47,882 bases of DNA, from the NCBI GenBank assembly GCA_035329185.1, contig DAOLHH010000002.1:1-47882 (forward strand), read 5' to 3'. The notes beneath the pieces were generated by a model. The model was not told where the DNA came from. It ran no database searches and saw nothing but the letters and a program-made list of their open reading frames with translations. Origin of the DNA: Candidatus Saccharimonadota bacterium (GTDB lineage Bacteria > Patescibacteriota > Saccharimonadia > Saccharimonadales > SZUA-47). The position numbers and the translations under genes were made by a program. Shown here in pieces: positions 4,613 through 38,056 of the stretch; the first letter of the stretch is position 1; every line of letters starts with the position of its first letter.

Positions 4613-4618
4613 TTAGTT

Positions 4619-5448: not shown

Positions 5449-6474
5449 ATGCAGACGCTATTCATATGTTTTCTTCTCGTGATTGCTGTAGTCAGTGTTT
5501 CGGTGCGTACCGGGTTACTTACCCTTAACCATTACCGGCTAAAGCAACTCGCTAAAGCGGGTGATAGACAAGCAAAGAATGTGTATCCACTGCATGCATT
5601 GCGCTATGAGCTCTATGTAGCCATGACCGTGCTCTATCTAGCAAGTGTAGCCACGCTCACTTTATTGTTTCGGATGGAGCTTGGAAGTATTCTCGCGGTC
5701 TGTATTGTCACGCTACTACTTGTAATTGTTGCCGAACTTTTACCGCTACTATATTTACGAAATAAGTCGATCCTTTTGCTATCTGTCTTGTCGCCGGCGC
5801 TTCGGAAGCTTGCCGGCCTTGTTGCACCGGTAACCAGACGAGTTGCACGTGTGATTGCTTCTGTTTTAGAGCGACAAGATAACGTACTCTATACGCGAGA
5901 ACAACTAATTGCACTGTTTGAAAATTCCCAAAAACATCATGAAAGTGATGTTTCTAAAGACGAATTACGAATGCTTCAAGGAGTTATGGAATTCGGTGAC
6001 AAATTGATACGTGATGTTATGACGCCGAGGCGTATGGTAAAACTTGTATCTCAAGATGCCGAAGTGGGCCCCTTATTTATGGATGAATTACATAAGTCAG
6101 GGCACTCACGATTTCCAGTAACAGTAGATAATAATCATCTGAATTTTGTTGGAACGCTCTACATGCGAGATCTTATCGGCCAAAAATCGTTGAAGAAAGT
6201 GCAGGATTTGATGAGTGAAGACGTTCGGTACGTACACGAAGAAGAAACGCTTGATCACGCACTTCGTGCTTTTTTGAAAACTCGTCACCACTTGTTTATC
6301 GTTGTTAATAACTTTGAGGAATTTGTCGGGGTACTTAGCATAGAAGATGTGCTGGAAGAAATTATTGGCACAGAGATTGTTGATGAATTCGATGCTCATG
6401 ATGATTTGCGAGCGGTAGCAGCTGGCATAGCAAACAAAGAGCGTGTGCGTCGAGAAAAAGACTCAAATAAGTAA
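5449..6474 (+). CDS. CNNM/CorB-type transporter (DUF21 membrane domain plus CBS pair)
   Basis: Four N-terminal TM helices followed by two CBS-like repeats (VMTPRRMV.., MSEDVRYV..IVVNNFEEFVGVLSIEDVLEEI). No C-terminal CorC/HlyC domain is visible. Confidence 0.8.
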   Translation: MQTLFICFLLVIAVVSVSVRTGLLTLNHYRLKQLAKAGDRQAKNVYPLHALRYELYVAMTVLYLASVATLTLLFRMELGSILAVCIVTLLLVIVAELLPLLYLRNKSILLLSVLSPALRKLAGLVAPVTRRVARVIASVLERQDNVLYTREQLIALFENSQKHHESDVSKDELRMLQGVMEFGDKLIRDVMTPRRMVKLVSQDAEVGPLFMDELHKSGHSRFPVTVDNNHLNFVGTLYMRDLIGQKSLKKVQDLMSEDVRYVHEEETLDHALRAFLKTRHHLFIVVNNFEEFVGVLSIEDVLEEIIGTEIVDEFDAHDDLRAVAAGIANKERVRREKDSNK

Positions 6475-6618
6475 ATGATGGTATAATATCTTTAACATGA
6501 AAAATACCAGTTTCTCTAATAGGAATTAGCGGCCTGCACCGTTTGCCAATAGCGGGCAGTCGGAGCATGGGCCGTACGAAGCTTTTAACTATTTTTTAAA
6601 GTGAGAAAAGAGACTGTA

Positions 6619-23450: not shown

Positions 23451-24866
23451 ATGTCAGAGTTTAGCGGTAAAAATCAAATTCTCACTACAGCAAGAGAGCT
23501 TACAGGAATACAACACGAAAGCGCTTTAGGCTATGCCGATACACCAATGACCGTTACGCGCACAGGTACAGTCTATGAAGTAAAGTTCGAATTACCTCCA
23601 ATTTCTTCACAAGAATTCATACAGTTTTTGAATCAGACTGCACCAGATCAGAGAACGCAAACAGCTGGCGGTATACGTGCAGACTGGGTATTCGCCCTTC
23701 CGGACCATGCTGATAGAGAGCTCGCTAAAAGTCACTCTAAGATTCCTGCTTGGGGCGATTTTACAATTAGAGCAAGTAATTATGTAGCGCTTGCTAATGA
23801 TGCAGAAATTCCGTATTTCTTAAGTAATCCTCTTCAAAGTGAAAGGGCATTTCAGAGCTGGAAGGCGCAGCTACCAGCCCCACAACCTACATCAATGATC
23901 GTGAGCAGATGGGTAGATGATCTGAGGATTTTAGATTCAGATAGTAATCTTGATGCTGAAACAAGGTTAGCAGAGATTACTAAGGATCAGATACTTAATA
24001 GATTTGCCAATAGTCCTGTATCGTTAATGCTTAAGCAGCTTTCTCGTGCAGGTTTTAGAGATGTCGAGGATATATTTAGGTGTGTTATTGAAACTTCAGA
24101 AGGTAGAAAATATAGGAATAGTGTAACGAAAGAAGTAATTAGAAGATTTTCAAAAAAACCGTTTGAACATCGAGTTGATGTACAAAAAGCTTTTATTGCT
24201 GTCCTTGCCGATAGGGATGATATTAAAACACGCGAAATTTTAGAAAACTTGATAAGCAATGGTCTAAGTAAGATGGCGGTCGCAAGAGGACTTATACCAG
24301 TGACTGATGATAACGGAAATCCGTCTTATGTCCACCCAGATGACTTGCCTAAGTGCGAGGATTATTTTGGTAGTTTTAGAACAGATACTGTTCCTGCGGA
24401 TTACAGAGAATTAGCAAAAGAGCCTGAAGTACTTGAAAGTGGAGGCATATTCTATAAACGACGTGATATGACGCTTAGATATAATTCGAATAAAAGAAAA
24501 ATTACAAGTTTCAGCACTTCCTCGTATGAGTTAGTTGATAAGCCGTGGAAATTTTTTGCAGAACCTATACTTCGGTGGACAGTAGATGGCTCTAGGAAGA
24601 GAGATCTAGAATTGGTGAGTGAGGTTAAGCATGACAGCATCGATGGTACTCAGATTGTGCAGGATGGTGTGTTTGGCTTGATGATCGCAGCACATTTATC
24701 AGATGATGTGGAACTACCTCAAAAATTAGGGCTAAGAATAAACGGCGCTCAGTTTCGACAAGAACAAAGAATGGGAGCAGCACAATTACCATTACTGGCC
24801 CTTATGCTAAAAAACAAAATAATGAATGGTTCATTTATTGAATCAGCGGAACGCGCTGTTTTATAA
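23451..24866 (+). CDS. Hypothetical cytoplasmic protein (471 aa)
   Basis: Long ORF with no TM segment or signal peptide. No family recognised. Confidence 0.55.
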   Translation: MSEFSGKNQILTTARELTGIQHESALGYADTPMTVTRTGTVYEVKFELPPISSQEFIQFLNQTAPDQRTQTAGGIRADWVFALPDHADRELAKSHSKIPAWGDFTIRASNYVALANDAEIPYFLSNPLQSERAFQSWKAQLPAPQPTSMIVSRWVDDLRILDSDSNLDAETRLAEITKDQILNRFANSPVSLMLKQLSRAGFRDVEDIFRCVIETSEGRKYRNSVTKEVIRRFSKKPFEHRVDVQKAFIAVLADRDDIKTREILENLISNGLSKMAVARGLIPVTDDNGNPSYVHPDDLPKCEDYFGSFRTDTVPADYRELAKEPEVLESGGIFYKRRDMTLRYNSNKRKITSFSTSSYELVDKPWKFFAEPILRWTVDGSRKRDLELVSEVKHDSIDGTQIVQDGVFGLMIAAHLSDDVELPQKLGLRINGAQFRQEQRMGAAQLPLLALMLKNKIMNGSFIESAERAVL

Positions 24867-26025: not shown

Positions 26026-26101
26026 TGGTGGGGCTGGTTGGAATTGAACCAACGACCAATCGGTTATGAGCCGACTGCTCTAACCTCTGAGCTACAGCCC
26101 C
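26026..26101 (-). tRNA. tRNA with anticodon CAT (elongator Met or lysidine-modified Ile2), CCA encoded
   Basis: Hand-folded cloverleaf: GGGGCTG-TA-GCTC-AGAGGTTA-GAGC-A-GTCGG-CTCATAA-CCGAT-TGGTC-GTTGG-TTCAATT-CCAAC-CAGCCCC-A-CCA. Confidence 0.9.
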
Positions 26102-26622: not shown

Positions 26623-29079
26623 CTACTGCGATTCTATGGCAGACTTTACTGCACCTGCGAGCCAACGTGCTTGTGTTTGTGATCCCTGATTAGAATAGTG
26701 CACGTAATCACCATCGGGTGGAATCATCTCTCCTCTGCCAATTGCTCCTTCAAAATCTATGAGGGTCGCGTCTATGCCATTTGATTTTGCCGATGCTACT
26801 CCCGCAGCAATTACAGGATTCGTGTAAACATGGAGAAGTTGACCATCCTGAATAACCCACCACTGTCCATCATCAACAAAAAAGGTGTTTACCCAGAATA
26901 TCTTCGCATTTGGGCTGTAGCCCTTCAGGGTGTTCATGAATGCTACCATGCGGACATCGTAGTTCTCTGTAATAGGGCTATCGTTTGTTCCTATGGCAAC
27001 AACGATGTAATTTGCGCTCGCTAAGTCATCTTTATGGCTATCGACAACTGCCTCGACATCGGATAATTTCCATCCACCCTTTGCCCTTATTGAATTCCCA
27101 ATGAATTCACCACTATTATCGGTGTATTCAGTATCAACACTAAAACCAGTTTCGTTAAATATTGGGAGAAGTCCATTGGCTGCCATGCCAACAGTGAGGG
27201 AGTCTCCAAACATGAAGAGCCTGTTTCCCGTTGATGGGAGTGGTGTAGGAGTGGGAGTAGGAGTGGTTGGGCTCGGTGCTGGTTCAGGAGTTGTAGGAGG
27301 TTCTTCTGAACTTTGCGTAGCTTCAAATGCAACGTATGAAATTGTAGCGTCAGCATCAACCCCTGTTGTTGCATTTGATGGCAGTGTTGATTCGGAGAGT
27401 CGGTAAATGTGCCCTATATTTGCAGCGTAGCTTTGATGAGGCGCAAAGAAAAATACAGCGGTAGCTGCAAAAATAATCGCCATCGAAGCACCTGCATAAC
27501 CGGTGTAAGGGTTTTCAGGCTGAACGTATGTGTAGTCCATCGTATTGTGCGCATATTCAAACGATCGAGTCTGTTTGTAGTGCCTTACTGCATAAATACC
27601 ACCAAAAATTATGCCAAGAATTACGAGGGTAGATAATACATACACCGACCATCTGCTCTTCACTTTTCCTGTAGTGGCAGCAACTTTATTATTCTGTATA
27701 TTCACCGTTGAACTGTAGGTCGCAATTTCACCACTTTTCTTGGTAACGCGCATGGAAAGCACAGCGCTCCCATTTTTAATTTTTGTCGTATCAAACGAGA
27801 AAGATGTAGGGGTGTCTTTGCTCTCTATGTCTATAGTATCGATAGTCTTCCCGCTCACTAGCAGTTCAAGCTTATCACCGGCGCTTAAAGAAATGTTTTT
27901 TGGAGCAGCAACTACGACGGTACCGCTAATATCTCCCTTCAGGTTTAGACCTGCAACGACCGCAGATTTAACCGGGCTGACCGTTTTAGTGTTTTTCGTT
28001 GTAGTTGATTGATTTGAGGTATTTGACGTTTGCGGGGTTTGTGAATTATTGGTAGGAGTTGCCGATGGGGCGTAATACGTATATTGGGGAATGGTCGTAG
28101 ATTGACTCGGTGTTGATGATGCATTCGAAGTGGGTTGTGGTGTGGGGCTAGGCGAGGGACTTGGTGCAGGCTGCGTACTAGCTGGTTCATTGCTGTCTGT
28201 ATTTGTATTATTTTGCTCAGAATTTTGATTTTCTGGTTTTGTTGTGGTCGGTTTAGTGTTCGTTGTTGGTTTCGTCGTCGTCGTTTCTTCTGTTGCGGGT
28301 GAGGGTGGGGTTGGCGTGGGTGATGAAGTTTCTTCCGAGTTATTAATGGTAAATTCTAGGGTTTTTTCTGTGACCCCACTTTCGCTAATAGCTCGTACGG
28401 TCAAAGAATGTTTGCCGTCTGATAGAGATTCGCTCGGCCAGCCTGCGCAATCACTATCAGTCAAGACAAGACAGTAAGGGGCAGTGGTCGAAGTTGAAAA
28501 AGCAGTACTTGCTTCATCAAAATAAAATTCCACGCGCACCGCTGGATTACTGCTATTCGAAAGTACTGTTTCCACAACGGGACTACCGGATACATTTTTA
28601 TTGAGTCCAACAATACTGAAATCTAAGGGTTCTTCGACACAATTTGTACCGTCGCCCGTAGGTACACACTCCCCGTCAAGCGTAAAAAGCAGTTTAGATA
28701 CTTTCAGCGCTCCGTCGCTTATATATACTCTAAATTGGCTAGTATCTTCACCTATTGTGATGCGCTTATTCGCGTCACTTAACCGAGTCCAGCTCCATGT
28801 ATCAGAATTATCCGGACTATTAAACTGAGTGCAGGAATTGCCTTCATCTCCACTGATATACGCCAGCGAACTATCATTACTTGGCTTATTTTGCTCTAGC
28901 CAAACGCTATATTCGCCTGGTACATCTATTGCATTTTGAACTGTGATGTAAGTTGATGGACAGGCATTTGCCTGTGCAGAGACACTTTCTATGATACCTT
29001 GTGCGCAAGCTAGTATTACGAGGCTTCCTACGAGCGTTAGGTTTGCAATTTTATATTTCAAAATTCCTTGTATCTTCAT
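26623..29079 (-). CDS. Large surface protein (818 aa). Order: signal peptide, Cys-containing beta module, Ig-like, PT linker, Ig-like, TM hairpin, PT linker, C-terminal SGNH/GDSL hydrolase
   Basis: SGNH blocks FMFGDSLTVG, VAIGTNDS and DYVHYS. Paralogous to the next gene over the first ~550 aa. Confidence 0.7.
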   Translation of the reverse strand: MKIQGILKYKIANLTLVGSLVILACAQGIIESVSAQANACPSTYITVQNAIDVPGEYSVWLEQNKPSNDSSLAYISGDEGNSCTQFNSPDNSDTWSWTRLSDANKRITIGEDTSQFRVYISDGALKVSKLLFTLDGECVPTGDGTNCVEEPLDFSIVGLNKNVSGSPVVETVLSNSSNPAVRVEFYFDEASTAFSTSTTAPYCLVLTDSDCAGWPSESLSDGKHSLTVRAISESGVTEKTLEFTINNSEETSSPTPTPPSPATEETTTTKPTTNTKPTTTKPENQNSEQNNTNTDSNEPASTQPAPSPSPSPTPQPTSNASSTPSQSTTIPQYTYYAPSATPTNNSQTPQTSNTSNQSTTTKNTKTVSPVKSAVVAGLNLKGDISGTVVVAAPKNISLSAGDKLELLVSGKTIDTIDIESKDTPTSFSFDTTKIKNGSAVLSMRVTKKSGEIATYSSTVNIQNNKVAATTGKVKSRWSVYVLSTLVILGIIFGGIYAVRHYKQTRSFEYAHNTMDYTYVQPENPYTGYAGASMAIIFAATAVFFFAPHQSYAANIGHIYRLSESTLPSNATTGVDADATISYVAFEATQSSEEPPTTPEPAPSPTTPTPTPTPLPSTGNRLFMFGDSLTVGMAANGLLPIFNETGFSVDTEYTDNSGEFIGNSIRAKGGWKLSDVEAVVDSHKDDLASANYIVVAIGTNDSPITENYDVRMVAFMNTLKGYSPNAKIFWVNTFFVDDGQWWVIQDGQLLHVYTNPVIAAGVASAKSNGIDATLIDFEGAIGRGEMIPPDGDYVHYSNQGSQTQARWLAGAVKSAIESQ

Positions 29080-29093
29080 GCGGGGATCAGCCT

Positions 29094-32072
29094 TTATTGT
29101 GGCGGTACGCAGTAAGCATACGCGTAGACTGAAGCGTTGTCAGGAAGCGGAGCTTGTGGACAGATTTCTTGGTGCAGTGTTTTAGCAGATACTTTGTCAT
29201 AGCCTGGGTCTGGCTGGATAGCTTTAAGTGCTTTCATTTCCATACCGCTTGCGTATTGATCGCAGTTTAAGCTTGAATTAGCAACGATACATGGGACAAG
29301 CGAGCCAAATCCACAGTCGCCACCAGTTGAAGTACTAACAGGCATATTGTTAAGACATTTGTCTAAGAATTCTTGATTTACTTGTGGATTCCACGCTCCA
29401 AACCAGTCACCGTGTGAACTCCCACCGTTGAAGGTTGACAAGGTACTTGTTGCACGATCGACATCAGAAGATAAGAACCATGTGCTCGAGTCTTCTCCAG
29501 CATCTGCAAAGTAGAAAATATTAAACTCCAGCAGAGGAAGAGTGATCGTGCCGGCAGGACATTCTGAATACCACCAACCACCGGTTGAATCTTCCCAAGA
29601 GTTTGCATAATCAGTAAGGTTTGCGTTCTCTTTAAGACATGTAGGGAAGGCGACAATTTGATGCAGGCGCATGTATGTGCCCCCGCAATTGACCATTTCG
29701 TTGCTATGAGGCGCATTATATTCGCAGTTCCATGGTGATGCTCCAGCTTTTTGAACGGTGATACGCTCTACAGGAATTACGAAACGAAGTCCGGCTGGGT
29801 ATGGCTGTACTTTACCGGCAATCGGTCCGGAGGCCTTGTAGTAGATAAGCATACGATCGGGGACGCGTACGTTTCCTTCCATATCCATGACGGCGGGTGC
29901 CCAATAGCCTGTACGATTCAATTCCATCCCCGAGCATGTACCATTTCCAGAACCAAGCAATGTCTCATATGTTGAAAAAGCGTTAGTATGCGTATTACCA
30001 AAGTTCATGTGCATATGAGCAACACCAGGCTGGTTCGGGTATACAATTGGGTCATCATAGCTAAAGTGTGAAAAGGCACATTCAGTTCTAAACATGACCT
30101 GTCCAGGCCCAATGGTATCCGGATTATAGGCTCCATGACCGGCGTAGTCGTCAGGATGTCCCCAGTTGTCAGGGTTGGTATACAAGGCTTCGGGTGACAT
30201 ATTTTCGCGAGCGGAATTATCAAAATTTTTATTACGAGATGATGCCGCACGGAGTAACGCTAACTGAGAGTTATAGTCAGCAGTCGTTGCTGGTGGAGGA
30301 GTCGGAGTCGGTGTGGGGGTCGGCGTTGGCGTTGGTGTCGGTGTAGGAGTTGGTGTGGGGGTAGGCGTAGGAGTTGGTGTTGGAGTAGTTCCTCCGTCGT
30401 CGTCCGGATCGTACCCAGTTTCTGGAGACTCATTTGGCCCTGTGCCCGAATCAGTATCGCTCATCAAGATATAGCTTATATTTTTTGTGGTGTCCTTTCC
30501 TTTTTGGAACTCAGTCGGTATCGCAGCGGTGGTCGAAGGTATGATATAGCCGACGTTTGCTGCTTGACTCGCGCTAACTCCCAAGAAAAGCACAGCCGTC
30601 ACACCGACGAGTATTGCCATGGTGGCTCCACCTGCTGCCATGTAGGGGTTTTCTGGCGCGACATACGTGTAGTCCATCGTATTGTGCGCAAAGTCGTACA
30701 TGCGACGCTTCATGTAATAACGGTAGCCGAATGCCGCACCTGCAATTAGCCCAATTACCAGGATGAAGGTGAGTAACATTGTTGGCCATTTTTGTTTTAC
30801 AGATCCTGTTGTAGCCGATATGGTACCATTTGAAATCTTAACGGTTGAGCTGTAAGTAGATATTTCGCCATTTGATTTTTTTGTAACGCGCAGAGAAATC
30901 ACGGCGCTCCCATTCTTGAGTTTTGTAGAGTCCAATACGAATGAAACAATTGCTGATGGATCGGTAATTTCTTTGGTTTCAATCACCTTACCGCTTGCGA
31001 GGAGCTCGACCTTATCACCTTTAGAAAACCTAATAGATTTTGGTGCGGTGATGATGACATTACCACTAATCTCGCTGTCTAGATTAAGGCCAGCAACCAC
31101 CGCAGATTTAACCGTGGTATTGGTTTTGTTGTCATTTATTTTAGATATAACGCCGTTTGATGAGGTATTTGAGCTGGAACTAGAGCTAGTGGAACTACCA
31201 GTGTTTGTATTTGTAGCATTGCTGGTGATTTGGCGTATGGCTCGTACCTCATTAGAATTGCTCCCAGGTGCCGTGTAAGGAAGAGTTGGCGTGCTTGATG
31301 GAGTCGGGGTAGGGGTTGGTGTTGGAGAAGGCGTCTCCGAAGCCGATTCGTTTTTTATAGTAAAGCTGATCACTTTTTCTGTCGGTTCTGTACCGCTCAC
31401 TGCGCGAATTGTTAGTTTGTGTGAGCCGTTAGACAGTGAGGAGCTTGGCCAGCCTGCGCAGTTTCCAGCAGTCAGCACAAGACAATAGGGTGAGCTTGAG
31501 CTTGTTGAAAACGGTTTACTTTCTTTATCAAAGTAGTATTCAACACGTACAGGGTCAACAGTTTTAGTATTTATGTACGTTTGGATAGTGACACTCCCTG
31601 AAATAGTTGAACCAGAATCGATTCCCTTGACACTCATACTTATAGGTTGTCGAACGCAGTTACTGCCATCTCCAGTCGGCGTACATTTCGTATCAAGAGT
31701 CAGGAGGAGGTTTGATAAGAGGGTAACACCGTTGTCGATGTATAAACGAATGCTGGCTTCTCCTGCACTAAAACTCTTTTTTAAAGTTCCACTAGACCCG
31801 GTCTTCCACGCCCAATCACCACCTGAACTTTTTGCAAAACTGCTACAACTTTTTCCACCATCATTACTTATTGAAACAACAGCTTTGGAGGTCGATTCTC
31901 GTTTTTCCTGTATCCATACCGCATAGTCACCCGACACATCAATAGTAGGAGAAACAGTCATGTAAGGTTTATCTGGGCATGAAGCTGCTTGAGCCTTAGG
32001 AACATGAATCGGTGCTAGTAACGCAATACAGCCAAGTACCAAAATACTAATAAAAATACCAATTCTCTTCAT
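29094..32072 (-). CDS. Large surface protein (about 992 aa), paralog of 26623..29079, with a C-terminal DUF1996-like domain
   Basis: Same N-terminal architecture. The C-terminal FRTECAFSHFSYDDPIVYPNQPGVAHMHMNFGN matches the DUF1996 signature as I recall it. ATG 32072 gives a clean signal peptide; the track start is 32111. Confidence 0.7.
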   Translation of the reverse strand: MKRIGIFISILVLGCIALLAPIHVPKAQAASCPDKPYMTVSPTIDVSGDYAVWIQEKRESTSKAVVSISNDGGKSCSSFAKSSGGDWAWKTGSSGTLKKSFSAGEASIRLYIDNGVTLLSNLLLTLDTKCTPTGDGSNCVRQPISMSVKGIDSGSTISGSVTIQTYINTKTVDPVRVEYYFDKESKPFSTSSSSPYCLVLTAGNCAGWPSSSLSNGSHKLTIRAVSGTEPTEKVISFTIKNESASETPSPTPTPTPTPSSTPTLPYTAPGSNSNEVRAIRQITSNATNTNTGSSTSSSSSSNTSSNGVISKINDNKTNTTVKSAVVAGLNLDSEISGNVIITAPKSIRFSKGDKVELLASGKVIETKEITDPSAIVSFVLDSTKLKNGSAVISLRVTKKSNGEISTYSSTVKISNGTISATTGSVKQKWPTMLLTFILVIGLIAGAAFGYRYYMKRRMYDFAHNTMDYTYVAPENPYMAAGGATMAILVGVTAVLFLGVSASQAANVGYIIPSTTAAIPTEFQKGKDTTKNISYILMSDTDSGTGPNESPETGYDPDDDGGTTPTPTPTPTPTPTPTPTPTPTPTPTPTPTPPPATTADYNSQLALLRAASSRNKNFDNSARENMSPEALYTNPDNWGHPDDYAGHGAYNPDTIGPGQVMFRTECAFSHFSYDDPIVYPNQPGVAHMHMNFGNTHTNAFSTYETLLGSGNGTCSGMELNRTGYWAPAVMDMEGNVRVPDRMLIYYKASGPIAGKVQPYPAGLRFVIPVERITVQKAGASPWNCEYNAPHSNEMVNCGGTYMRLHQIVAFPTCLKENANLTDYANSWEDSTGGWWYSECPAGTITLPLLEFNIFYFADAGEDSSTWFLSSDVDRATSTLSTFNGGSSHGDWFGAWNPQVNQEFLDKCLNNMPVSTSTGGDCGFGSLVPCIVANSSLNCDQYASGMEMKALKAIQPDPGYDKVSAKTLHQEICPQAPLPDNASVYAYAYCVPPQ
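30291..30383 (-). repeat. In-frame (Thr-Pro)n tandem repeat linker (about 14 TP units plus PPP)
   Basis: Plus strand reads (GGNGTN)n. It translates to TTPTPTPTPTPTPTPTPTPTPTPTPTPTPTPPP. Confidence 0.9.
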
Positions 32073-32142
32073 AACGATACAATAACCCCCGTTTGGTTTC
32101 AGATGTAGCATAACAGAAGTTGCTTATGTTTTCTAGAGGTAT

Positions 32143-34701
32143 TTAGTCGTGGTAAATAGCTTTTAAAATATCCATTCGTGCAGCTTTTCGTGCTGGCCAC
32201 GCTGCAGCAATAATGCCCGCAATTATCGCGAGTACAAAATAGAGAATGATTTGTGTTGTCGGGAATACGTACCCTTCAATACCCTGTGACGCAAGCGCTC
32301 GTAACACAGCCCATGCAAAGAATGCCCCCATAGCAACACCGAGTACCGCACCAAAGAGTGCAATGATTATAGATTCGTAGCGAATCATTCGACGCATCTG
32401 ACTTCTTGTCATGCCAATCGCCCGAAGCATACCAAGTTCCCGTGTTCGCTCGCTTATGGAAAGCATCAGGGTATTGGTTATACCGAGCACAGCAATGTTA
32501 ATTGCAAACGCAAGCAACCCCCAGAAGAGCGCTAAAATCTGGTCAATCTGTTTTTTAGCAGTTTCAAACAAATCACCCTTGTCCTGTACGCCAATTTGCG
32601 GATATCCTGCAAGGGCTGTTTTAATTTGTTCTTTTGCGACACTTATCTCAACATTATCTTGAACTTTTATGAGAAGCATAGTGAGAACATCTACCGGGAT
32701 ATTTTTCAGGTACGTTTCGTTCGATACGATAAGGTCTGAGTCAAATGCCTCGTTAAACGTACCTGCAATTTCAAAATTTTGAGTTCCGTTTGTTGGAAAT
32801 TCTATTGCAATTTTCTCACCTACTGTCCACCCTTCTGCATCAAGTCTCTTCTTGGAAACGAGTATTCCGCCATCCGCAACTCTTTCATAAGCCTTTTCAG
32901 TTTCATCTAGTTTCATGACAGAGCCGAATGTTTCAGCGTCGACACCTGCAAAAAAATCTTCAGTGATGCCATTTATTTTAACTCCTTGAAATGCATAGCG
33001 AACACGAACGATAGTTTTTAGATCAGCAATATCCTTAATCTGATCGTATACGTTAACACTAAATCCGCCTGTCCCCGGTCCGCCCTGGCCAATATTATTA
33101 GAGTAGACAGTTAGATCAGCGGGGAAGCTATCATCCAATACCCGTGTAATTTCAGATTTAAAGGTCGTAGCCATGATGGAGAGCATCGTTACGAGAGATA
33201 CGCCAATCATGAGTGCTGCGGCAGTTGATGCAGTCCGACGTGGCGTTCGTTTCGCATTATCGCGCGCTAGTCGAGCAGGGATGCCACGAAGTTTGACAAG
33301 CGGTGCACCGATAAAGCGAGTCAGGGGTATCGAGAGTAATGGCGCAATAACCGAAACGCCAATAAACATTAAAACCACTCCCGCACCGACCGCGTAGAGT
33401 GGGTTGTCAATATCGCCATTCAAACCATAAATAAGTGCGAATGCACCAATCGATGCTAGCAATATACCACTGAATCCTCGCTTGAAGAGTGATTTACGAT
33501 TTGGACCACTTGCTTCGTTGTCTCTCAGTGCTTCAACTGGAGAAACTTGAGAAGCTTTAATAGCAGGTAAGAGCGCAGCAACCAGTGTCACTATGACGCC
33601 GACCGAAAGTGATATATAAACCGTTCGGGGCGCGATGGTGAGATCTCCGCTCGGGATGCCAAAACCAAACCCATTCATGAGCGCACGGACGGCTGATGAA
33701 ATGATTAAACCTGCAAAAATACCAATGGTCGAAGACAATAACGAAACAGCAATCGCCTCATATATAACGAGGCTAACCACTTGAAAGCGTGTCGCTCCGA
33801 TGGCACGTAGCAAGGCAAGTTCTTTCGAGCGCTGTGCCACAATAATTCGAAACGTATTTTGGATAATAAAAGATCCAACAAAAATAGCTATACCAGCGAA
33901 CGCGAGCAGTGCCGTATTAATAAACCCTAGATTTTGATTGATGTCGCTAATTTGTTCATTTGACTGTTGTTCACCTGTGACAGCCTCCAGCTCCGAGGGT
34001 ATTGCTTGTGCGACTCGATCTCGAAGTGTGTTTGCGTCTACTCCTGTCTGAGCTTTAATATTAATTTCGCTAAATTTTCCTTCTTGACCAAATAGGCGCT
34101 GGGCCTCTTTGAGTTCGAATGCCGCAAGGGTGGCTCCCCCAAGGTTGTTTGCTTGTCCGAACGTGGCAATACCTGTAATAGTGAACTCTTCCGCTGGCCC
34201 GTTTGTGACTATTTTAACGCTATCGCCAACCTTAAAATTATTTGAAAGCGCAGTCGCTTTGTCCATTACGACTTCGCCGGCTTTTTCGGGAGCCTTTCCG
34301 CCATCTTCAATCTTTAAGATGCTTAATCCGGCCTCAGAAGTCCATGAAGAACCAATTGTCGGTGGTCCTTGGCCACCAATGGGTTTGCCTTCGCGATCCA
34401 GAAATTGTGCCGTTCCACCAACGCCCCCGCTTGCGACACTTACTCCTTCGACTGTTCGAATCGTGTCTATAACTGACTCATCAAACGCAGCGGTATTTTG
34501 CCCAAATTCTGCCTGTTGAGGACGTACCGTAACATCAACTCCAGAAAAAACATCCTTAAAGAGGTTTTTAAAGGTCGAACTTATGCTATCGGTGAAAATG
34601 TAGGTGCCAGATATAAAACTAACCCCAAGAATAATCGAGAAACCGGTGAGGAACATTCGTAGCTTGTGGCCAAGAAGGTTTTTAATTGCTGCGCGTAACA
34701 T
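32143..34701 (-). CDS. MacB/FtsX-type ABC transporter permease, duplicated (two FtsX modules, two large extracytoplasmic domains)
   Basis: Repeated conserved loops ELALLRAIGATRFQV and ELGMLRAIGMTRSQM. ATG 34701 lies 7 nt after AGGAG; the track start is 34740. Confidence 0.85.
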   Translation of the reverse strand: MLRAAIKNLLGHKLRMFLTGFSIILGVSFISGTYIFTDSISSTFKNLFKDVFSGVDVTVRPQQAEFGQNTAAFDESVIDTIRTVEGVSVASGGVGGTAQFLDREGKPIGGQGPPTIGSSWTSEAGLSILKIEDGGKAPEKAGEVVMDKATALSNNFKVGDSVKIVTNGPAEEFTITGIATFGQANNLGGATLAAFELKEAQRLFGQEGKFSEINIKAQTGVDANTLRDRVAQAIPSELEAVTGEQQSNEQISDINQNLGFINTALLAFAGIAIFVGSFIIQNTFRIIVAQRSKELALLRAIGATRFQVVSLVIYEAIAVSLLSSTIGIFAGLIISSAVRALMNGFGFGIPSGDLTIAPRTVYISLSVGVIVTLVAALLPAIKASQVSPVEALRDNEASGPNRKSLFKRGFSGILLASIGAFALIYGLNGDIDNPLYAVGAGVVLMFIGVSVIAPLLSIPLTRFIGAPLVKLRGIPARLARDNAKRTPRRTASTAAALMIGVSLVTMLSIMATTFKSEITRVLDDSFPADLTVYSNNIGQGGPGTGGFSVNVYDQIKDIADLKTIVRVRYAFQGVKINGITEDFFAGVDAETFGSVMKLDETEKAYERVADGGILVSKKRLDAEGWTVGEKIAIEFPTNGTQNFEIAGTFNEAFDSDLIVSNETYLKNIPVDVLTMLLIKVQDNVEISVAKEQIKTALAGYPQIGVQDKGDLFETAKKQIDQILALFWGLLAFAINIAVLGITNTLMLSISERTRELGMLRAIGMTRSQMRRMIRYESIIIALFGAVLGVAMGAFFAWAVLRALASQGIEGYVFPTTQIILYFVLAIIAGIIAAAWPARKAARMDILKAIYHD

Positions 34702-34711
34702 AGCTAATCTC

Positions 34712-35476
34712 CTAAGACCCAAGTTTCTTGAAGTGTTCAAGAATCGTATCGACAGAAGGATTCTTTATCTCATCAACAATATTGCCATCTTTAAGCATCA
34801 CTACGCGGTCTGCGTATGCTGCTGCATTAGGATCGTGCGTTACCATGACGATTGCTTGCCCATATTCATTGGCTGCCTTACGCAAGAATTGCAACAAGCC
34901 TGCTGCTGACTTTGAGTCCAAGTTTCCACTTGGTTCGTCGGCGAATATAATATCTGGACGGCTCACTAATGCGCGGGCGACGGCAACACGCTGTATTTGT
35001 CCACCAGATAATTCCGTTGGGGTATGGTTGAGCCTGTCTGCAATGCCAAGTAGGGTAACAAGATCTTTGAACCATTTTTTATCAGCTTTACGACCAGCAA
35101 TAGATAAGGGAAGGAGGATGTTTTCTTTCGCAGTGAGTGTCGGTACTAAGTTGAATGATTGAAATATAAAACCAACTCGTTTGCGACGTAACATCGTTAA
35201 TGATTTATCTTTGAGTTTACCGAGATTATGCCCTGCAATTTCTGCCGTTCCCTGAGATAGTTTATCGAGTCCTGCCGCACAATGAAGCAGTGTCGATTTA
35301 CCAGAACCCGAAGGGCCCATGATGGCTGTAAATACCCCTTTTTGAAAATCAATAGTCACGCCATTGAGCGCACGTACTTCCGTATCATTTTTCCCGTAAA
35401 TCTTATAAGCGTCAACAACACGTGCCATTGTAGTGCTGTCTTGGGTCTTTTTAGGTAATTCTGCTTGTTTTTGCAT
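34712..35476 (-). CDS. ABC transporter ATP-binding protein (MacB/LolD-like)
   Basis: Walker A GPSGSGKSTLL, signature LSGGQIQRVAVARAL, Walker B IIFADEPSGNLD. AAGGAG lies 7 nt upstream. Confidence 0.9.
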   Translation of the reverse strand: MQKQAELPKKTQDSTTMARVVDAYKIYGKNDTEVRALNGVTIDFQKGVFTAIMGPSGSGKSTLLHCAAGLDKLSQGTAEIAGHNLGKLKDKSLTMLRRKRVGFIFQSFNLVPTLTAKENILLPLSIAGRKADKKWFKDLVTLLGIADRLNHTPTELSGGQIQRVAVARALVSRPDIIFADEPSGNLDSKSAAGLLQFLRKAANEYGQAIVMVTHDPNAAAYADRVVMLKDGNIVDEIKNPSVDTILEHFKKLGS

Positions 35477-35563: not shown

Positions 35564-36673
35564 ATGGGTAAGAAAAAATCTACGCACGCTCGAGCGTTAA
35601 GGTATGTTCGTAAAAACTGGCTCTCATTCCTGTTTATTTTTGTGGGATTGCTTTCAGCAGCAACCATATTATTGGTCCCCAAAGCACAACAAAAAGTTGA
35701 AGATGAAAAGCCGGCAGAATTGGTGAATTGTGATGGCGATAAAAATCTTGATTTTGATTGTTGGACCGAGCATTTTACCGCGCTTGTTCAGCAACAATCA
35801 GTAAAAGCGGCGATGGATGATATAAAATCTCGTTACACATCAAACGGATATCTAAGAGGCGAGTGCCATCAGGTGACACATGTTATTGGACGCGCCGCTG
35901 TTAAATCGGGCATGTCGCTCGGTTCAGCTTACCAACAAGGTGATAGCTATTGCGCTTCTGGATATTATCATGGCGCGGTTGAAGAAATTGCAAAATCTAT
36001 GGGAAAAGACACTTTTATAGCTCAAGTTGATTCCGTTTGCCAAGATATTATCAAGCAAAGCAAGTATTCTATCAATCATCATAACTGTACGCATGGTATA
36101 GGACATGGGCTTATGTTAATAACCGAAGATGAACTTTTTGAGTCAATCAATGCATGCGATAGCATTGTGGATAGTTGGAGTAAGAGCTCATGCCTGGGTG
36201 GTGTTTTTATGGAAAATGTCATCGCAGACCCCTCGACGAATCCAACTCACGCCACAAAATATCTTAAGCCAGAAGACCCCATGTATCCTTGTAATTCGGT
36301 AGAACAAACGTTCAAAGAGCCATGCTACCTAATACAGACTGCATATGCCTTACGACAGACGGGTCAAGATTTTGCCAAGGTGTTCGATATGTGTGGAGCG
36401 GTCGAAGAAGATATGCGTGATACGTGCTGGCAAAGTCTCGGTCGAGACGCATCTGGTAATAGTGTGAGTAACATAAGTATTACGCGCGAACGTTGCGAGT
36501 TAGGAAAAACAATCGAAGCTCAGATGAATTGTGCCATTGGTGCGGCAAAAGACTTCGTGTATCATTACGCAGATGATGCAGAGGCATATAAACTGTGTGC
36601 AACATTTTCAGAACAAGAAGTCGAAAATACTTGTAACGCAACAACGGCATCGTATATAAAGAGTTTTAGATGA
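35564..36673 (+). CDS. Membrane-anchored Cys/His-rich repeat protein (369 aa, 16 Cys), unknown function
   Basis: TM anchor followed by a recurring Cys-led motif (CHQVTHVIG, CASGYYHGA, CTHGIGHGL, CLGGVFMEN, CWQSLGRD, CAIGAAKD). Confidence 0.5.
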   Translation: MGKKKSTHARALRYVRKNWLSFLFIFVGLLSAATILLVPKAQQKVEDEKPAELVNCDGDKNLDFDCWTEHFTALVQQQSVKAAMDDIKSRYTSNGYLRGECHQVTHVIGRAAVKSGMSLGSAYQQGDSYCASGYYHGAVEEIAKSMGKDTFIAQVDSVCQDIIKQSKYSINHHNCTHGIGHGLMLITEDELFESINACDSIVDSWSKSSCLGGVFMENVIADPSTNPTHATKYLKPEDPMYPCNSVEQTFKEPCYLIQTAYALRQTGQDFAKVFDMCGAVEEDMRDTCWQSLGRDASGNSVSNISITRERCELGKTIEAQMNCAIGAAKDFVYHYADDAEAYKLCATFSEQEVENTCNATTASYIKSFR

Positions 36674-37005
36674 ACAAGAAACTATTATTAGTGAGTTTTG
36701 TAATCGCAGGAATACTTGTCGGCACCGCTACTGTCTTACGGCAATCAAAAGATCAGTCTGCGGGGTCTAAAACTTATGCTCAACAAGAATTAGCAAGCGC
36801 TGATGGTAAAGACGGCCGTGATTGCTGGCTTGCGGTAGATGGTGTTATTTATGAGATTGAACAAGGATACAAATGGGTAGAAGGAGAGCATACTGAGTCT
36901 TCTACAGCATATTGTGGCGCAGATATGAGCTCCGTTATAGATCAAGCACCGCATGGTCGAACAAAGCTTTCTCAATTAAAGAAAATCGGTACTCTGCAAC
37001 GTTAA
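36670..37005 (+). CDS. Membrane-anchored cytochrome b5-like heme/steroid-binding domain protein
   Basis: LASADGKDGRDCWLAVDGVIYEI..W..GEH...CGADMS..IDQAPHG. ATGA overlap with the upstream gene. Confidence 0.65.
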   Translation: MNKKLLLVSFVIAGILVGTATVLRQSKDQSAGSKTYAQQELASADGKDGRDCWLAVDGVIYEIEQGYKWVEGEHTESSTAYCGADMSSVIDQAPHGRTKLSQLKKIGTLQR

Positions 37006-37012: not shown

Positions 37013-38056
37013 TTAGTTGGTCACTTTTAAGTGGGCGTCATAGATAAGGCCGCCTGTTTGCTCGGAGAAATCTCCGTAGAATAGGTGAATGGTGTCATCA
37101 GATTCAAAATAGCCGTCGACATCAGCGCCGTGAAGCCCTATTTTGCCAAGCTTTTCCCAAGTTATGCCATCAGTTGATGTTGCAGCGAATACCTCGGAGT
37201 GTGCGTTATATAACATAATATATCCACCTTTAGGATTGGCGAGTACGAATGGATGTAATACCTGTGACCATGCTCCCTGTGATCCGAGGGCGTCTTTTTC
37301 GATCTGGTCATAAACAATCGTTGCGCTTGTATCTCGTGTCCAAGCCAGTCCATCTGTTGAACCTGCCCCCCAGATCTGGCCATCACGTTGGTTACCTGAA
37401 GCGATAGAATTTTCATCGAAGTACATACGCCATGACTTATCGGCAAGCTGAAAGGCAGTTGGGCCTTCAAGGTAATATGAATCTCTAGGTTCAACACGAT
37501 TTCCTGAATCTTTGGTGAATACTTTGCCGTCGGTACTCGTTGAGCTTTGTATAGCAGCTGGTGGGTCGCTTGGCCTGATAGGCTGTGCGCCAGGGTAGTA
37601 GAATCGAACTCCAGTCTCTATTGGTACTGCACGTCCTGTCGCAACACCAGGGAATATAACGTCTAGTTCTTTTTCCCACGTGTCGCCGTCAGTGGAGGTG
37701 TAGGTGAGGTATCCACCTTGACCCCCCGATTGTCTGTTTATATACATTCGGAATCCGGTGTCGGTTTTAATGACTGAGGGGTCAGCGAGACCGTCTGTCA
37801 GTATTTTATTGCCTGAATCTATTACGCTGATTTCAGTCGATTTTTTGTTTTTTTCTTCTGACGATTCGGGTGTTGTCGAAGAAGTAGCTGTTTCTATCTT
37901 GTCAGATTTGTTGCTTACAGTTTTCCACGCCATGAATATGACGCCGGCAACTATTAAAATGCCGAGTAAAAGTATAATGTGCCCAATGCCCTGTGGTTCT
38001 TGTGTTGTATTTTTAGCCATAAGCATTACTATATTGTTTTTATACGATTCGAGCAA
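37013..38056 (-). CDS. Membrane-anchored BNR/Asp-box beta-propeller protein (sialidase-like or glycoside-hydrolase-like)
   Basis: Asp-box repeats STDGDTWEK, STDGKVF, STDGLAWTR and STDGITWEK, plus ADPSVIK. The start is uncertain (ATGs at 38056, 38026, 38020). Confidence 0.6.
   Translation of the reverse strand: MLESYKNNIVMLMAKNTTQEPQGIGHIILLLGILIVAGVIFMAWKTVSNKSDKIETATSSTTPESSEEKNKKSTEISVIDSGNKILTDGLADPSVIKTDTGFRMYINRQSGGQGGYLTYTSTDGDTWEKELDVIFPGVATGRAVPIETGVRFYYPGAQPIRPSDPPAAIQSSTSTDGKVFTKDSGNRVEPRDSYYLEGPTAFQLADKSWRMYFDENSIASGNQRDGQIWGAGSTDGLAWTRDTSATIVYDQIEKDALGSQGAWSQVLHPFVLANPKGGYIMLYNAHSEVFAATSTDGITWEKLGKIGLHGADVDGYFESDDTIHLFYGDFSEQTGGLIYDAHLKVTN

What the first reader, a model, noticed from the sequence alone, without database searches (positions are those of the whole stretch)
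26623..35476. MacB/FtsX-type ABC system followed by two giant paralogous surface proteins that carry different enzyme domains
Seen: four same-strand genes with short gaps. They are an ABC ATPase, an 852-aa permease with two FtsX modules and two large outside domains, and two paralogs of about 992 and 818 aa. Both paralogs share a signal peptide and a ~230-aa Cys-containing beta-rich module (CP..Y.TV..IDV.G.Y.VW; C.PTGDG.NCV). Next come an Ig-like module (YFD...PYCLVLT..CAGWPS.SLS.G.H.LT.RA), a PT linker, a second Ig-like module, a TM hairpin and a second PT linker. The C-termini then differ: an SGNH/GDSL hydrolase (FGDSLT, GTNDS, DYVHY) versus a DUF1996-like domain (DDPIVYPNQPGVAHMHMNFGN). Known: MacB/FtsEX-type ABC machines act as mechanotransmitters that control extracytoplasmic hydrolases (FtsEX with PcsB, CwlO or RipC) or expel substrates. 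SGNH enzymes cleave esters in lipids and O-acetylated glycans. DUF1996 has no assigned function. Inference: this is one envelope module that displays interchangeable enzymes on a common stalk, possibly powered or regulated by the ABC machine. In a reduced epibiont-like genome it is a plausible host-surface or own-wall remodelling device. I do not know this domain architecture to be described.
Basis: partly seen in the sequence, partly recalled or inferred. Interest (0 to 1): 0.75.

Follow-up and report, generated by a model that had tools for sequence, protein, structure and literature searches.

The report
Membrane-hairpin surface enzymes with swappable heads
Two large genes of a Saccharibacteria genome belong to an undescribed family of surface proteins that carry a sugar-binding arm and an exchangeable enzyme arm on either side of a membrane hairpin; the ABC transporter next to them is an older, widespread system whose functional link to them is unproven.

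Summary
Four tightly packed minus-strand genes encode an ABC ATPase, an 852-aa MacB/FtsX-type permease, and two paralogs of 992 and 818 aa that share a stalk but end in DUF1996 or SGNH domains.

The paralogs belong to a rare family: about 30 clusters among 1.84 billion representative proteins. Where an organism is named, it is Saccharibacteria. The shared plan, in order:
- a Sec signal peptide;
- a divergent CBM35/CBM6-like module;
- a Big_7 Ig domain and a P/T linker;
- a second Ig-like domain;
- a TM hairpin with a K/R-rich cytoplasmic loop (HNxxxYxYVQP);
- a signal-peptidase-like small-x-small site and a second linker;
- an exchangeable head.

Heads across the family are DUF1996 (most common), SGNH, GH5, GH16 and GH18, some with CBM60, CBM6 or PA14. 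One genome has two copies with identical 1.7-kb stalks and different heads.

So "interchangeable enzymes on a common stalk" is strongly supported, and the heads look like carbohydrate-active enzymes.

The ABC link is only partly supported. Family members flank the ABC pair in six related loci. But the pair occurs without them in four other Saccharibacteria loci and at about 46% identity in Actinobacteria, and family members occur without it.

The DUF1996 head folds confidently, with no match in the PDB.

The parts
34712..35476 (-). ABC ATPase, 254 aa, of the MacB/LolD/FtsE-like nucleotide-binding type.
   Evidence: ABC_tran 1.7e-30. The best NCBIfam hits are DarD, LolD, MacB, YbbA and FtsE, all below their equivalog cut-offs.
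32143..34701 (-). Fused type VII ABC permease, 852 aa: two FtsX 4-TM modules, two MacB periplasmic core domains and two linker TM segments (about 10 TM in all).
   Evidence: Pfam FtsX x2 and MacB_PCD x2. Hydropathy. PDB relatives are Spr0695, MacB, YtrF and LolC/E/F. The start was chosen from the AGGAG Shine-Dalgarno and the 852-aa homologs.
29094..32072 (-). Paralog A, 992 aa: a stalk protein with a DUF1996 head.
   Evidence: The start was chosen from the Shine-Dalgarno and from the 992-aa gene call in GCA_035329265.1.
31986..32072 (-). Paralog A signal peptide (aa 1-29, ...PKAQA|ASCP).
   Evidence: Hydrophobic N-terminus. An A-x-A site directly before the conserved CP motif is seen in all relatives.
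31647..31979 (-). Paralog A N-module (aa 32-142): a CBM35/CBM6-like beta-sandwich with four conserved Cys.
   Evidence: A profile of 28 N-modules hits PDB 8zvk_A (E 1.2e-8, two repeats), the C-terminal repeats of GH31 entry 5x7o (9.2e-5), and CBM35 entries 2w3j, 2vzp and 2w1w. Foldseek on the model (pLDDT 74-82 in this part) returned the same CBM35 and CBM6 entries at E about 1e-2.
31407..31616 (-). Paralog A first Ig domain (Big_7).
   Evidence: PF17957, 28.3 bits against a threshold of 24.1, in 6 of 6 relatives.
30561..30788 (-). Paralog A TM hairpin (aa 429-504): TM1, a K/R-rich loop with HNTMDYTYVAPENPY, TM2, then SASQA|AN.
   Evidence: The DNA of the loop is the best-conserved stretch between the two paralogs (75% over 76 nt).
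29097..30290 (-). Paralog A DUF1996 head (aa 595-992).
   Evidence: PF09362, 69 bits. AlphaFold2 model with pLDDT 89.7 and pTM 0.90. No neighbour in the PDB or BFVD. Invariant residues H75, H92, H94, H293, D80, D276 and 8 Cys.
26623..29079 (-). Paralog B, 818 aa: a stalk protein with an SGNH head.
28630..28962 (-). Paralog B N-module (aa 40-150), CBM35/CBM6-like.
   Evidence: Aligned with paralog A. Included in profile A6.
27424..27654 (-). Paralog B TM hairpin (aa 476-552), ending in HQSYA|AN.
26626..27228 (-). Paralog B SGNH/GDSL hydrolase head (aa 618-818).
   Evidence: Blocks I (GDS), II (G), III (GxN) and V (DxxH) are invariant in four heads. Lipase_GDSL_2 matches 4 of 4, best 8e-10. Nearly all profile hits in the PDB are SGNH-fold or GDSL-type proteins.

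Best explanation
The two large genes are members of a rare, previously unmodelled family. Where an organism is named, it is Saccharibacteria. I read them as double-armed, membrane-anchored, extracytoplasmic carbohydrate-active proteins.

How each protein is built (inferred from sequence):
1. It is exported by a cleavable Sec signal peptide.
2. The N-terminal arm is a disulfide-bonded CBM35/CBM6-like module, a Big_7 Ig domain, a P/T/S-rich spacer and a second Ig-like domain.
3. TM1 stops transfer. A K/R-rich cytoplasmic loop of 30-40 aa carries the motif HNxxxYxYVQP. TM2 re-exports the chain.
4. The C-terminal arm is a conserved ~40-aa beta segment, a second P/T spacer and an exchangeable head.

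In this window the heads are a DUF1996 domain and an SGNH esterase with a complete Ser-Asp-His set. Elsewhere in the family they are GH5, GH16, GH18 or DUF1996, some preceded by CBM60, CBM6 or PA14.

Inferred mechanism: the hairpin fixes both arms at the cell surface, so that a glycan caught by the CBM-like arm is cut or de-esterified by the head. The products stay close to a sugar-dependent cell. The substrate could be an environmental polysaccharide or the wall of the host bacterium.

New heads appear to be acquired by recombination within the second P/T linker.

The upstream ATPase and permease form a type VII (MacB-fold) ABC machine. It is probably co-transcribed with the paralogs in this lineage. 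It is older and much more widespread than the paralogs, so it is best treated as a neighbour with a possible, unproven functional tie.
For: Architecture and paralogy.

Family survey: an HMM of the second Ig plus hairpin, run against 1.84 billion representatives, gave 121 hits. About 25 further clusters matched the whole profile in one stretch. Their heads are DUF1996, GH18, GH16, GH5, SGNH, CBM60, PA14 and CBM6. The N-module profile also matches members from other subfamilies at E 1e-40 to 1e-50.

Topology: in all 33 members listed there is a hydrophobic pair, K/R directly after TM1, and a conserved loop motif. The N-module has four conserved Cys (three invariant, one nearly invariant) and the DUF1996 head has 8 invariant Cys.

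N-module as CBM35/CBM6-like: (E 1.2e-8 and 9.2e-5, then known CBM35 entries), with the same PDB entries from Foldseek.

SGNH catalytic blocks.

Head exchange: P0006 (GH5) and P0007 (SGNH) share 576 identical residues and about 1.7 kb of near-identical DNA. The breakpoint lies in the second P/T linker.

DUF1996 as a glycan-active head: it is interchangeable with GH heads on the same scaffold and is combined with CBM60, PA14 or CBM6. In fungi it often occurs with CBM1, CBM6 or WSC domains (PMC7679414).

Probable co-transcription: gaps of 10, 70 and 14 nt, each start with a Shine-Dalgarno.

Organism: a relative's record is titled Candidatus Saccharibacteria, and permease homologs are named so.

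A further membrane-anchored GH32N-like gene lies nearby at 37013-38056.
Against: - No biochemical data exist for any member.
- DUF1996 has no known activity, and its confident model has no solved structural neighbour. Calling it a carbohydrate-active enzyme is guilt by association.
- The CBM-like assignment rests on weak-to-moderate profile scores, and no ligand residues were checked.
- The full-length model was poor (pLDDT 39.8). The relative arrangement of the arms, and any contact between the post-TM2 segment and the stalk, are unknown.
- Topology is inferred from hydropathy and charge only. No dedicated predictor was available.
- The repeated placement of members of three subfamilies on both sides of the ABC block may mean the ABC tie is tighter than I assume.
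Confidence: 0.6

Rival explanations
1. One reading: the ABC machine and the stalk proteins form one device. ATP-driven movements of the permease ectodomains would activate, release or insert the stalk proteins, as FtsEX does with PcsB, CwlO, RipC or EnvC, or as LolCDE extracts lipoproteins.
For: - The genes share a strand with gaps of 10, 70 and 14 nt.
- A family member lies directly downstream of the permease in the window, L007/L008, L010, L016 and L017. In L016 it is from another subfamily, only 29-31% identical to paralog A, while the permease is 83% identical.
- In L017 and L021, members of a further subfamily sit just upstream of the ABC block.
- Precedent from the literature: the Rv0986-0988 / AttE-H operons pair a MacB-like ABC with two ectodomains and an exported protein, and are implicated in adhesion (PMC7761784 and PMC3982062).
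Against: - The ABC pair has no family member within about 8 kb in L011, L012, L013 and L020. L011 keeps the same DivIC-like, FMN_red, HxlR and Dus neighbourhood, so the paralogs look like an insertion.
- More than 6000 permease homologs exist, full length at 44-47% identity in Acidimicrobiia and Actinomycetia.
- Family members in L014 and L015, and the third copy in L007, are not in an ABC operon.
- FtsX equivalog models score 33-49 bits against cut-offs of 225-255.
- The weak model shows no coiled-coil adaptor in the stalk.
- All positive loci come from one clade, so shared ancestry can explain the synteny.
Confidence: 0.2
2. TM2 is an internal signal peptide rather than a permanent anchor. 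Signal peptidase I would cut after the conserved small-x-small site (SQA|AN in paralog A, SYA|AN in paralog B). Each gene would then yield two chains: a type I anchored CBM-Ig protein, and a released enzyme head. The head might be retained non-covalently through its conserved ~40-aa N-terminal segment.
For: - By my reading of the sequences printed, all 33 members have A or G at -1 and a small or neutral residue at -3. The site lies 5-9 residues after the hydrophobic core, after a polar, helix-breaking stretch. It is followed by a conserved G-x-G-F/Y segment.
- This resembles a signal-peptide c-region more than a typical helix end.
- A signal peptidase S26 gene lies near two members in L014. 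This is weak support.
Against: - No experimental or predictor-based support was available.
- The residues just before TM2 are not positively charged.
- Keeping the two halves fused in every member, with a conserved cytoplasmic loop, is equally compatible with a stable hairpin.
Confidence: 0.35
3. The proteins act mainly on the host bacterium rather than on environmental polymers. They would be adhesion and wall-remodelling tools of an epibiont: the CBM-like arm binds the host envelope glycan, and the SGNH, GH18 or DUF1996 heads locally de-O-acetylate or cut it.
For: - Saccharibacteria context.
- SGNH relatives in the PDB search include the peptidoglycan O-acetyl enzyme PatB and sialate O-acetylesterase.
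- Members diverge fast and differ in copy number between close genomes, as expected for host-interaction genes.
Against: - The accessory modules are CBM60 (annotated as xylan-binding), CBM6 and PA14. The GH5 and GH16 heads also suggest plant, fungal or algal glycans.
- A GH32N-like gene lies nearby.
- No LysM, SH3b or peptidoglycan-binding domains were found.
Confidence: 0.3

Closest known systems
Modular surface or secreted CAZymes of monoderm bacteria (CBM, Ig/Fn3, P/T linker and catalytic domain, for example the multidomain cellulases and chitinases of Firmicutes and Actinobacteria)
   Same: - A CBM35/CBM6-like module, Big_7 Ig spacers, P/T-rich linkers and GH5, GH16, GH18 or SGNH catalytic domains.
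- Domain shuffling at the linkers.
   Different: - Here the connection between the binding arm and the catalytic arm runs through the membrane as a TM hairpin with a conserved cytoplasmic loop.
- Pfam found no dockerin, cohesin, SLH or LPXTG element.
- The N-module and hairpin have no Pfam or NCBIfam model.
MacB / type VII ABC transporters (MacB, LolCDE, Spr0694-0695, YtrEF, YbbP/ADOP duplicated permeases)
   Same: - FtsX 4-TM modules with MacB periplasmic core domains, and a LolD/MacB/FtsE-type ATPase.
- The two halves are fused into one ~10-TM chain, as in ADOP and YbbP.
   Different: - Scores are far below every curated equivalog cut-off: ADOP 104 against 622, YbbP 23 against 999, MacB 81 against 966.
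- There is no membrane fusion protein gene in the locus.
- The substrate is unknown.
FtsEX with its hydrolase partners (PcsB, CwlO, RipC, EnvC)
   Same: A type VII ABC next to genes for extracytoplasmic hydrolases, which raises the idea of mechanotransmission.
   Different: - The permease is duplicated and carries MacB_PCD ectodomains, not the FtsX ectodomain.
- FtsX models score 33-49 bits against cut-offs of 225-255.
- The partners are integral membrane proteins with no coiled-coil adaptor detected.
Rv0986-Rv0988 of M. tuberculosis and AttE-H of Agrobacterium (from the literature, not compared by sequence here)
   Same: An ATPase, an ~855-aa permease with two extracellular domains, and a downstream exported protein. 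The operon is linked to host-cell binding (PMC7761784, PMC3982062).
   Different: - Rv0988/AttH is a ~386-aa exported protein (size from memory) and is not described as a stalk-plus-head protein.
- Homology to the window's permease was not tested.
Fungal DUF1996 proteins (PF09362)
   Same: - The head domain passes the Pfam threshold.
- It keeps the DPIxxP head signature (DDPIVYP) and nearly keeps the HxDxxxGW tail signature (HGDWFGAW) described in PMC4738358.
- It is associated with CBMs (PMC7679414).
   Different: - This is a bacterial, membrane-tethered form, interchangeable with glycoside hydrolase heads.
- The fungal proteins studied were localised to vacuoles, and their biochemical function is unknown.

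Membership tests
Type VII (MacB-fold) ABC transporter | ABC ATPase with a MacB/LolD/FtsE-type nucleotide-binding domain | tested here: met
   ABC_tran 1.7e-30. Top NCBIfam hits are DarD, LolD, MacB, YbbA, DevA and FtsE.
Type VII (MacB-fold) ABC transporter | FtsX 4-TM module with a large extracytoplasmic domain between TM1 and TM2 (MacB_PCD) | tested here: met
   FtsX x2 at 2.1e-35 and MacB_PCD x2 at 1.4e-22. Hydropathy pattern 4+2+4. PDB relatives are MacB, Spr0695, YtrF and LolC/E.
Type VII (MacB-fold) ABC transporter | Membership of a characterised equivalog (MacB, LolCDE, FtsX, YbbP, DevC) | tested here: not met
   All scores are far below the curated cut-offs.
FtsEX-hydrolase mechanotransmission system | FtsX-type permease | tested here: not met
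   FtsX_actino 49 against 250, FtsX_Gpos 48 against 225, FtsX_Gneg 33 against 255.
FtsEX-hydrolase mechanotransmission system | Partner with a coiled-coil or adaptor domain that docks on the permease ectodomain | tested here: inconclusive
   The full-length model shows only beta domains and the two TM helices in the stalk, but the model is poor (pLDDT 39.8). No multimer prediction was possible.
FtsEX-hydrolase mechanotransmission system | Co-occurrence of the ABC pair and its partner across genomes | tested here: inconclusive
   Six loci of one clade have them adjacent. Four Saccharibacteria loci have the ABC pair alone. Two loci have family members and no ABC pair on their short contigs.
SGNH/GDSL hydrolase | Conserved blocks I (GDS, nucleophile Ser), II (Gly), III (GxN) and V (DxxH) | tested here: met
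   G8, D9, S10, G51, G80, N82, D174 and H177 are invariant in four heads.
SGNH/GDSL hydrolase | Pfam gathering threshold for Lipase_GDSL_2 | tested here: inconclusive
   28.0 bits for the whole protein and 32.6 bits for the head, against 32.9. Relatives reach 8e-10. Nearly all PDB profile hits are SGNH-fold or GDSL-type proteins.
DUF1996 (PF09362) | Pfam gathering threshold over the full model | tested here: met
   69 bits against 27, model positions 1-237. Relatives score 60-156 bits.
DUF1996 (PF09362) | [quoted passage not shown] | tested here: met
   DDPIVYP is present. The tail is HGDWFGAW, with A in place of G at one position. D79, D80, P85, H293, D295 and W300 are invariant or nearly invariant.
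CBM35/CBM6-like carbohydrate-binding module (N-module) | Sequence-profile or fold similarity to known CBM35 or CBM6 modules | tested here: met
   Profile A6 hits 8zvk_A at 1.2e-8, 5x7o at 9.2e-5, then 2w3j, 5x7g, 2vzp and 2w1w. Foldseek returns 2vzp, 2w3j, 2cdo and 2w1w at E about 1e-2. No Pfam CBM model matches.
CBM35/CBM6-like carbohydrate-binding module (N-module) | Ligand- or calcium-binding residues and demonstrated glycan binding | not testable with these tools
   No coordinates or binding data are available.
Cellulosome, S-layer or sortase-anchored CAZymes | Dockerin or cohesin, SLH, or an LPXTG signal | tested here: not met
   Pfam scans of the two paralogs and 27 relatives found none. 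The C-termini end in ...YCVPPQ and ...AIESQ.
Rv0986-0988 / AttE-H operon | Orthology of the permease and of the downstream exported protein | not tested
   Known to me only from the literature. No sequences were compared.

The most novel reading that the evidence does not exclude
The locus could be a dedicated surface glycan-processing island with four linked features:
- DUF1996 is a new metal-dependent class of polysaccharide-cleaving enzyme. It has four invariant His, invariant Asp residues and a fold with no solved relative.
- The scaffold proteins are cut at the internal signal-peptide-like TM2 into an anchored CBM chain and an enzyme chain held on it.
- The MacB-type ABC is the machine that releases, positions or actuates these hairpin proteins.
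- Its conserved divergent neighbours, a secreted cytochrome b5-like protein and a Cys-rich membrane protein, take part in the same process.
Probability: 0.1. Interest if true: 0.85.

Novelty: new variant of a known kind. Interest (0 to 1): 0.6.

Why it matters
- It defines a compact scaffold by which ultrasmall, wall-attached bacteria display exchangeable enzymes. This bears on how Saccharibacteria feed on or remodel what surrounds them.
- It gives DUF1996 a testable hypothesis: a glycan-active, probably metal-dependent enzyme. DUF1996 is a large domain family, also frequent in fungi, with no known activity and no solved structure. Here it is used interchangeably with GH5, GH16, GH18 and SGNH domains and is combined with CBM60, CBM6 or PA14.
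- It shows a natural cassette-exchange point (the second P/T linker) that could be used for engineering.
- It raises a specific, checkable question: can a MacB-type ABC machine service hairpin-anchored surface proteins?

Tried and rejected
- A full-length homolog search was swamped by the P/T linkers. Only 16 hits passed among 8000 candidates. I switched to linker-free sub-alignments.
- Pattern-based scans of genome and metagenome contigs found only close relatives: one and two loci.
- The word-indexed search with the N-module profile returned only fragments.
- The full-length AlphaFold2 model was poor (pLDDT 39.8). Its Foldseek hits are only weak hints.
- The DUF1996 model found nothing in the PDB or BFVD, and its sequence profile found nothing in the PDB.
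- Promoter and terminator scans were no better than shuffled sequence.
- Cluster look-ups gave no organism names, so the taxonomy of distant members stays open.
- I considered a lipoprotein anchor, because of LVLGC in paralog A and ILAC in paralog B. I rejected it because that Cys is absent from the signal peptides of relatives.
- I considered that the identical stalks of P0006 and P0007 are an assembly artefact. Both copies lie on one 261-kb contig with distinct flanks, so I treat them as real, with that caveat.
- Literature searches found no description of this architecture.

Full report
**1. Observation**

The region holds four co-directional genes on the minus strand.

| Gene | Coordinates | Length |
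|---|---|---|
| ATPase | 35476->34712 | 254 aa |
| Permease | 34701->32143 | 852 aa |
| Paralog A | 32072->29094 | 992 aa |
| Paralog B | 29079->26623 | 818 aa |

The shorter starts are the right ones for two reasons. Each is preceded by a Shine-Dalgarno sequence (AGGAG, GGGGG, AAGG). Homologs and public gene calls also have these lengths. The gaps are 10, 70 and 14 nt. Promoter and terminator scans were uninformative.

Pfam confirms four assignments:
- ABC_tran on the ATPase.
- Two FtsX and two MacB_PCD domains on the permease.
- DUF1996 on paralog A, at 69 bits against a threshold of 27.
- A borderline GDSL hit on paralog B.

The two paralogs are 42% identical over the N-terminal 234 residues (E 1e-56). 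They are 40% identical over the second Ig plus hairpin region (E 6e-55), and then diverge.

**2. The two heads**

*SGNH.* The head of paralog B and three related heads keep blocks I (GDS), II (G), III (GxN) and V (DxxH) invariant. All four match Lipase_GDSL_2, best at 8e-10. Nearly all hits of their profile in the PDB are SGNH-fold or GDSL-type proteins: PAF-AH Ib, CE2, PatB and sialate O-acetylesterase.

*DUF1996.* The assignment is secure.
- An alignment of 18 family heads has these invariant residues (head numbering): R68, H75, Y78, D80, H92, H94, D276, H293, W300 and eight Cys.
- With that alignment, AlphaFold2 gave a confident model (pLDDT 89.7, pTM 0.90).
- Foldseek found no neighbour in the PDB (best E 0.28, TM below 0.15) or in BFVD. 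The sequence profile found none either.
- In the held literature DUF1996 has no biochemical function. One study places three fungal members in vacuoles (PMC4738358). Another notes frequent fusion to CBM1, CBM6 or WSC domains and suggests a role in polysaccharide degradation (PMC7679414).

**3. The stalk**

The order of parts is as follows.

- *Signal peptide.* It ends in A-x-A directly before a conserved Cys-Pro.
- *N-module (~111 aa).* It has four conserved Cys (three invariant, one nearly invariant) and no Pfam model. A profile of 28 family N-modules hits PDB 8zvk_A twice (E 1.2e-8). It also hits the C-terminal repeats of a GH31 enzyme (5x7o, 9.2e-5), and then the CBM35 entries 2w3j, 5x7g, 2vzp and 2w1w. 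Foldseek on the first, weak model (N-module pLDDT 74-82) returned the same CBM35 and CBM6 entries at E about 1e-2. I therefore read it as a divergent CBM35/CBM6-like module. Binding itself is untested.
- *First Ig domain.* Big_7, 28.3 bits against a threshold of 24.1, in 6 of 6 sequences.
- *P/T/S linker, then a second Ig-like domain.*
- *TM hairpin.* Described next.

The hairpin has the same features in all 33 members examined:
- TM1 is followed immediately by several K/R residues.
- The loop is 29-44 aa (by count of the printed sequences) and carries HNxxxYxYVQP.
- TM2 is followed, 5-9 residues after its hydrophobic core, by a small-x-small site. This is SQA|AN in paralog A and SYA|AN in paralog B.
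- A conserved G-x-G-F/Y segment and a ~40-aa stretch ending in Y-V/A-x-M/L come next.

Three features place both arms outside the cell, with the loop in the cytoplasm:
- the signal peptide;
- the positive-inside pattern of the loop;
- the conserved Cys pairs in both arms.

Whether TM2 is cut by signal peptidase I cannot be decided here. I give it 0.35.

**4. The family**

The full-length search was dominated by the P/T linkers. It still found close relatives with DUF1996, SGNH and GH5-like heads.

An exhaustive HMM search with the linker-free second-Ig-plus-hairpin profile gave 121 hits among 1.84 billion cluster representatives. About 25 further clusters matched the whole profile in one stretch.

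Their heads:
- DUF1996: 15 of the 25.
- GH18: three.
- GH16: one.
- GH5: one here, plus P0006 among the close relatives.
- An SGNH-like domain preceding DUF1996: one.
- CBM60, PA14 or CBM6 inserted before DUF1996: several.
- A propeller-like head: one.
- No Pfam-recognised catalytic head: P0148, P0169 and P0171. P0152 and P0154 end soon after the hairpin.

The N-module profile also matches members from other subfamilies at E 1e-40 to 1e-50. The whole scaffold is therefore conserved, not only the hairpin.

In locus L007, two copies (P0006 with GH5 and P0007 with SGNH) share 576 identical residues and about 1.7 kb of near-identical DNA. They diverge inside the second P/T linker. This is direct evidence for head exchange at that point.

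The family has no Pfam or NCBIfam model for its N-module or hairpin. I found no description of it in the literature.

**5. Organism**

- A relative's genome record is titled uncultured Candidatus Saccharibacteria.
- Permease homologs of 56-65% identity are named Candidatus Saccharibacteria.
- The window's own proteins occur in MAG GCA_035329265.1 and in several metagenomes.
- The taxonomy of the most distant members could not be established.

**6. The ABC pair and its link to the stalk proteins**

The permease is a fused type VII ABC permease (4+2+4 TM, two MacB_PCD domains). It is far below every curated equivalog cut-off. Its solved relatives are Spr0695, MacB, YtrF and LolC/E/F. It has more than 6000 homologs, full length at 44-47% identity in Acidimicrobiia and Actinomycetia.

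Context of the ABC pair and of family members:

| Locus | Permease identity to window | Family members nearby |
|---|---|---|
| Window | 100% | Two directly downstream |
| L007/L008 | 75% | Two downstream; a third copy sits beyond an opposite-strand gene |
| L010 | not measured | At least one downstream |
| L016 | 83% | One downstream, only 29-31% identical to paralog A |
| L017 | 65% | A paralog-A ortholog downstream; two members of another subfamily upstream |
| L021 | 62% | One upstream; the contig ends after the permease |
| L011 | 64% | None within about 8 kb; same DivIC-like, FMN_red, HxlR and Dus neighbours as the window |
| L012 | 61% | None within about 8 kb |
| L013 | 56% | None within about 8 kb |
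| L020 | 64% | None within about 8 kb |
| L014, L015 | no ABC pair on the contig (10-14 kb) | Paired family members |

The loci with adjacency also share a divergently transcribed pair: a Cys-rich 369-aa membrane protein and a 111-aa cytochrome b5-like protein. This pair is absent from the loci without adjacency.

My reading is a clade-specific island built around an older, autonomous ABC pair. The repeated placement of different subfamilies on both sides keeps a functional tie possible (0.2). The data are equally explained by inherited synteny or by a hotspot for surface-protein genes.

The FtsEX analogy fails on the permease type. No coiled-coil adaptor is visible, although the model is poor. 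The Rv0986-0988 / AttE-H operons are the nearest literature precedent, but I did not compare them by sequence.

**7. Mechanism**

*Shown:*
- The domain content.
- The paralogy.
- The family-wide scaffold.
- Head exchange.
- The tight gene packing.

*Inferred:*
- The out-in-out topology.
- Glycan binding by the N-module.
- Catalysis by the heads on a polysaccharide or its acetyl esters.
- Anchoring of both arms by the hairpin, so that products are released at the cell surface.

*Open:*
- The substrate, whether an environmental polymer or the host wall.
- Cleavage at TM2.
- The role of the conserved cytoplasmic loop.
- The role of the ABC machine.

**8. Verdict**

- The "common stalk, interchangeable enzymes" idea is strongly supported and extended to a family.
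- The ABC coupling is not established.
- Novelty: a new variant of modular surface CAZymes, with an unusual mid-chain membrane hairpin.
- The family also gives a useful handle on DUF1996.
- Interest: 0.6.

Noticed in passing
window 37013-38056 (-): A 347-aa protein with an N-terminal TM segment and a GH32N-like beta-propeller (26.1 bits against a threshold of 22.1; weak GH43 hit). It is another membrane-anchored glycosidase-like gene, on the same strand just upstream of the ABC block.
   Followed up: partly
window 35564-36673 (+) and 36670-37005 (+): A Cys-rich 369-aa membrane protein with no Pfam match, and a 111-aa protein with a weak cytochrome b5-like hit (20.3 bits against a threshold of 23.7). 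They are transcribed divergently from the ABC operon. By tblastn the 369-aa protein is conserved next to the ABC pair in L008, L016, L017 and L021, and the 111-aa protein in L017 and L021. All four loci hold stalk-family members. Neither protein is found in L011-13 or L020.
   Followed up: partly
L007 5857-8331 and 10001-13207: Two family genes share about 1.7 kb of near-identical DNA (576 identical residues) and then carry SGNH or GH5 heads. This points to recent duplication or gene conversion with head replacement in the second P/T linker. An assembly artefact was not formally excluded.
   Followed up: yes
window 32143-34701 (-): The permease is 44-47% identical over its full length to proteins of Acidimicrobiia and Actinomycetia, the phylum that supplies known Saccharibacteria hosts. 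This could reflect old gene transfer between host and epibiont lineages.
   Followed up: no
window 23451-24866 (+): A 471-aa ORF with no Pfam match lies between the HxlR-type regulator and the Dus gene. It is absent from the same position in L007, which suggests a lineage-specific insertion.
   Followed up: no
window 104-154 (+): An AdoCbl-II (cobalamin) riboswitch aptamer match (38.3 bits against a gathering score of 36.5) lies upstream of the ORF at 244-1827.
   Followed up: no
window 26029-26101 (-): A tRNA gene (75 bits) lies between the FMN reductase gene and the DivIC-like gene, just beyond the end of paralog B.
   Followed up: no
L014 (GCA_964467745.1), 2939-7300: Two tandem family members lie downstream of genes for signal peptidase S26, a LytR-CpsA-Psr protein and an HtrA-like protease. 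This is an envelope-biogenesis neighbourhood with no ABC pair.
   Followed up: no
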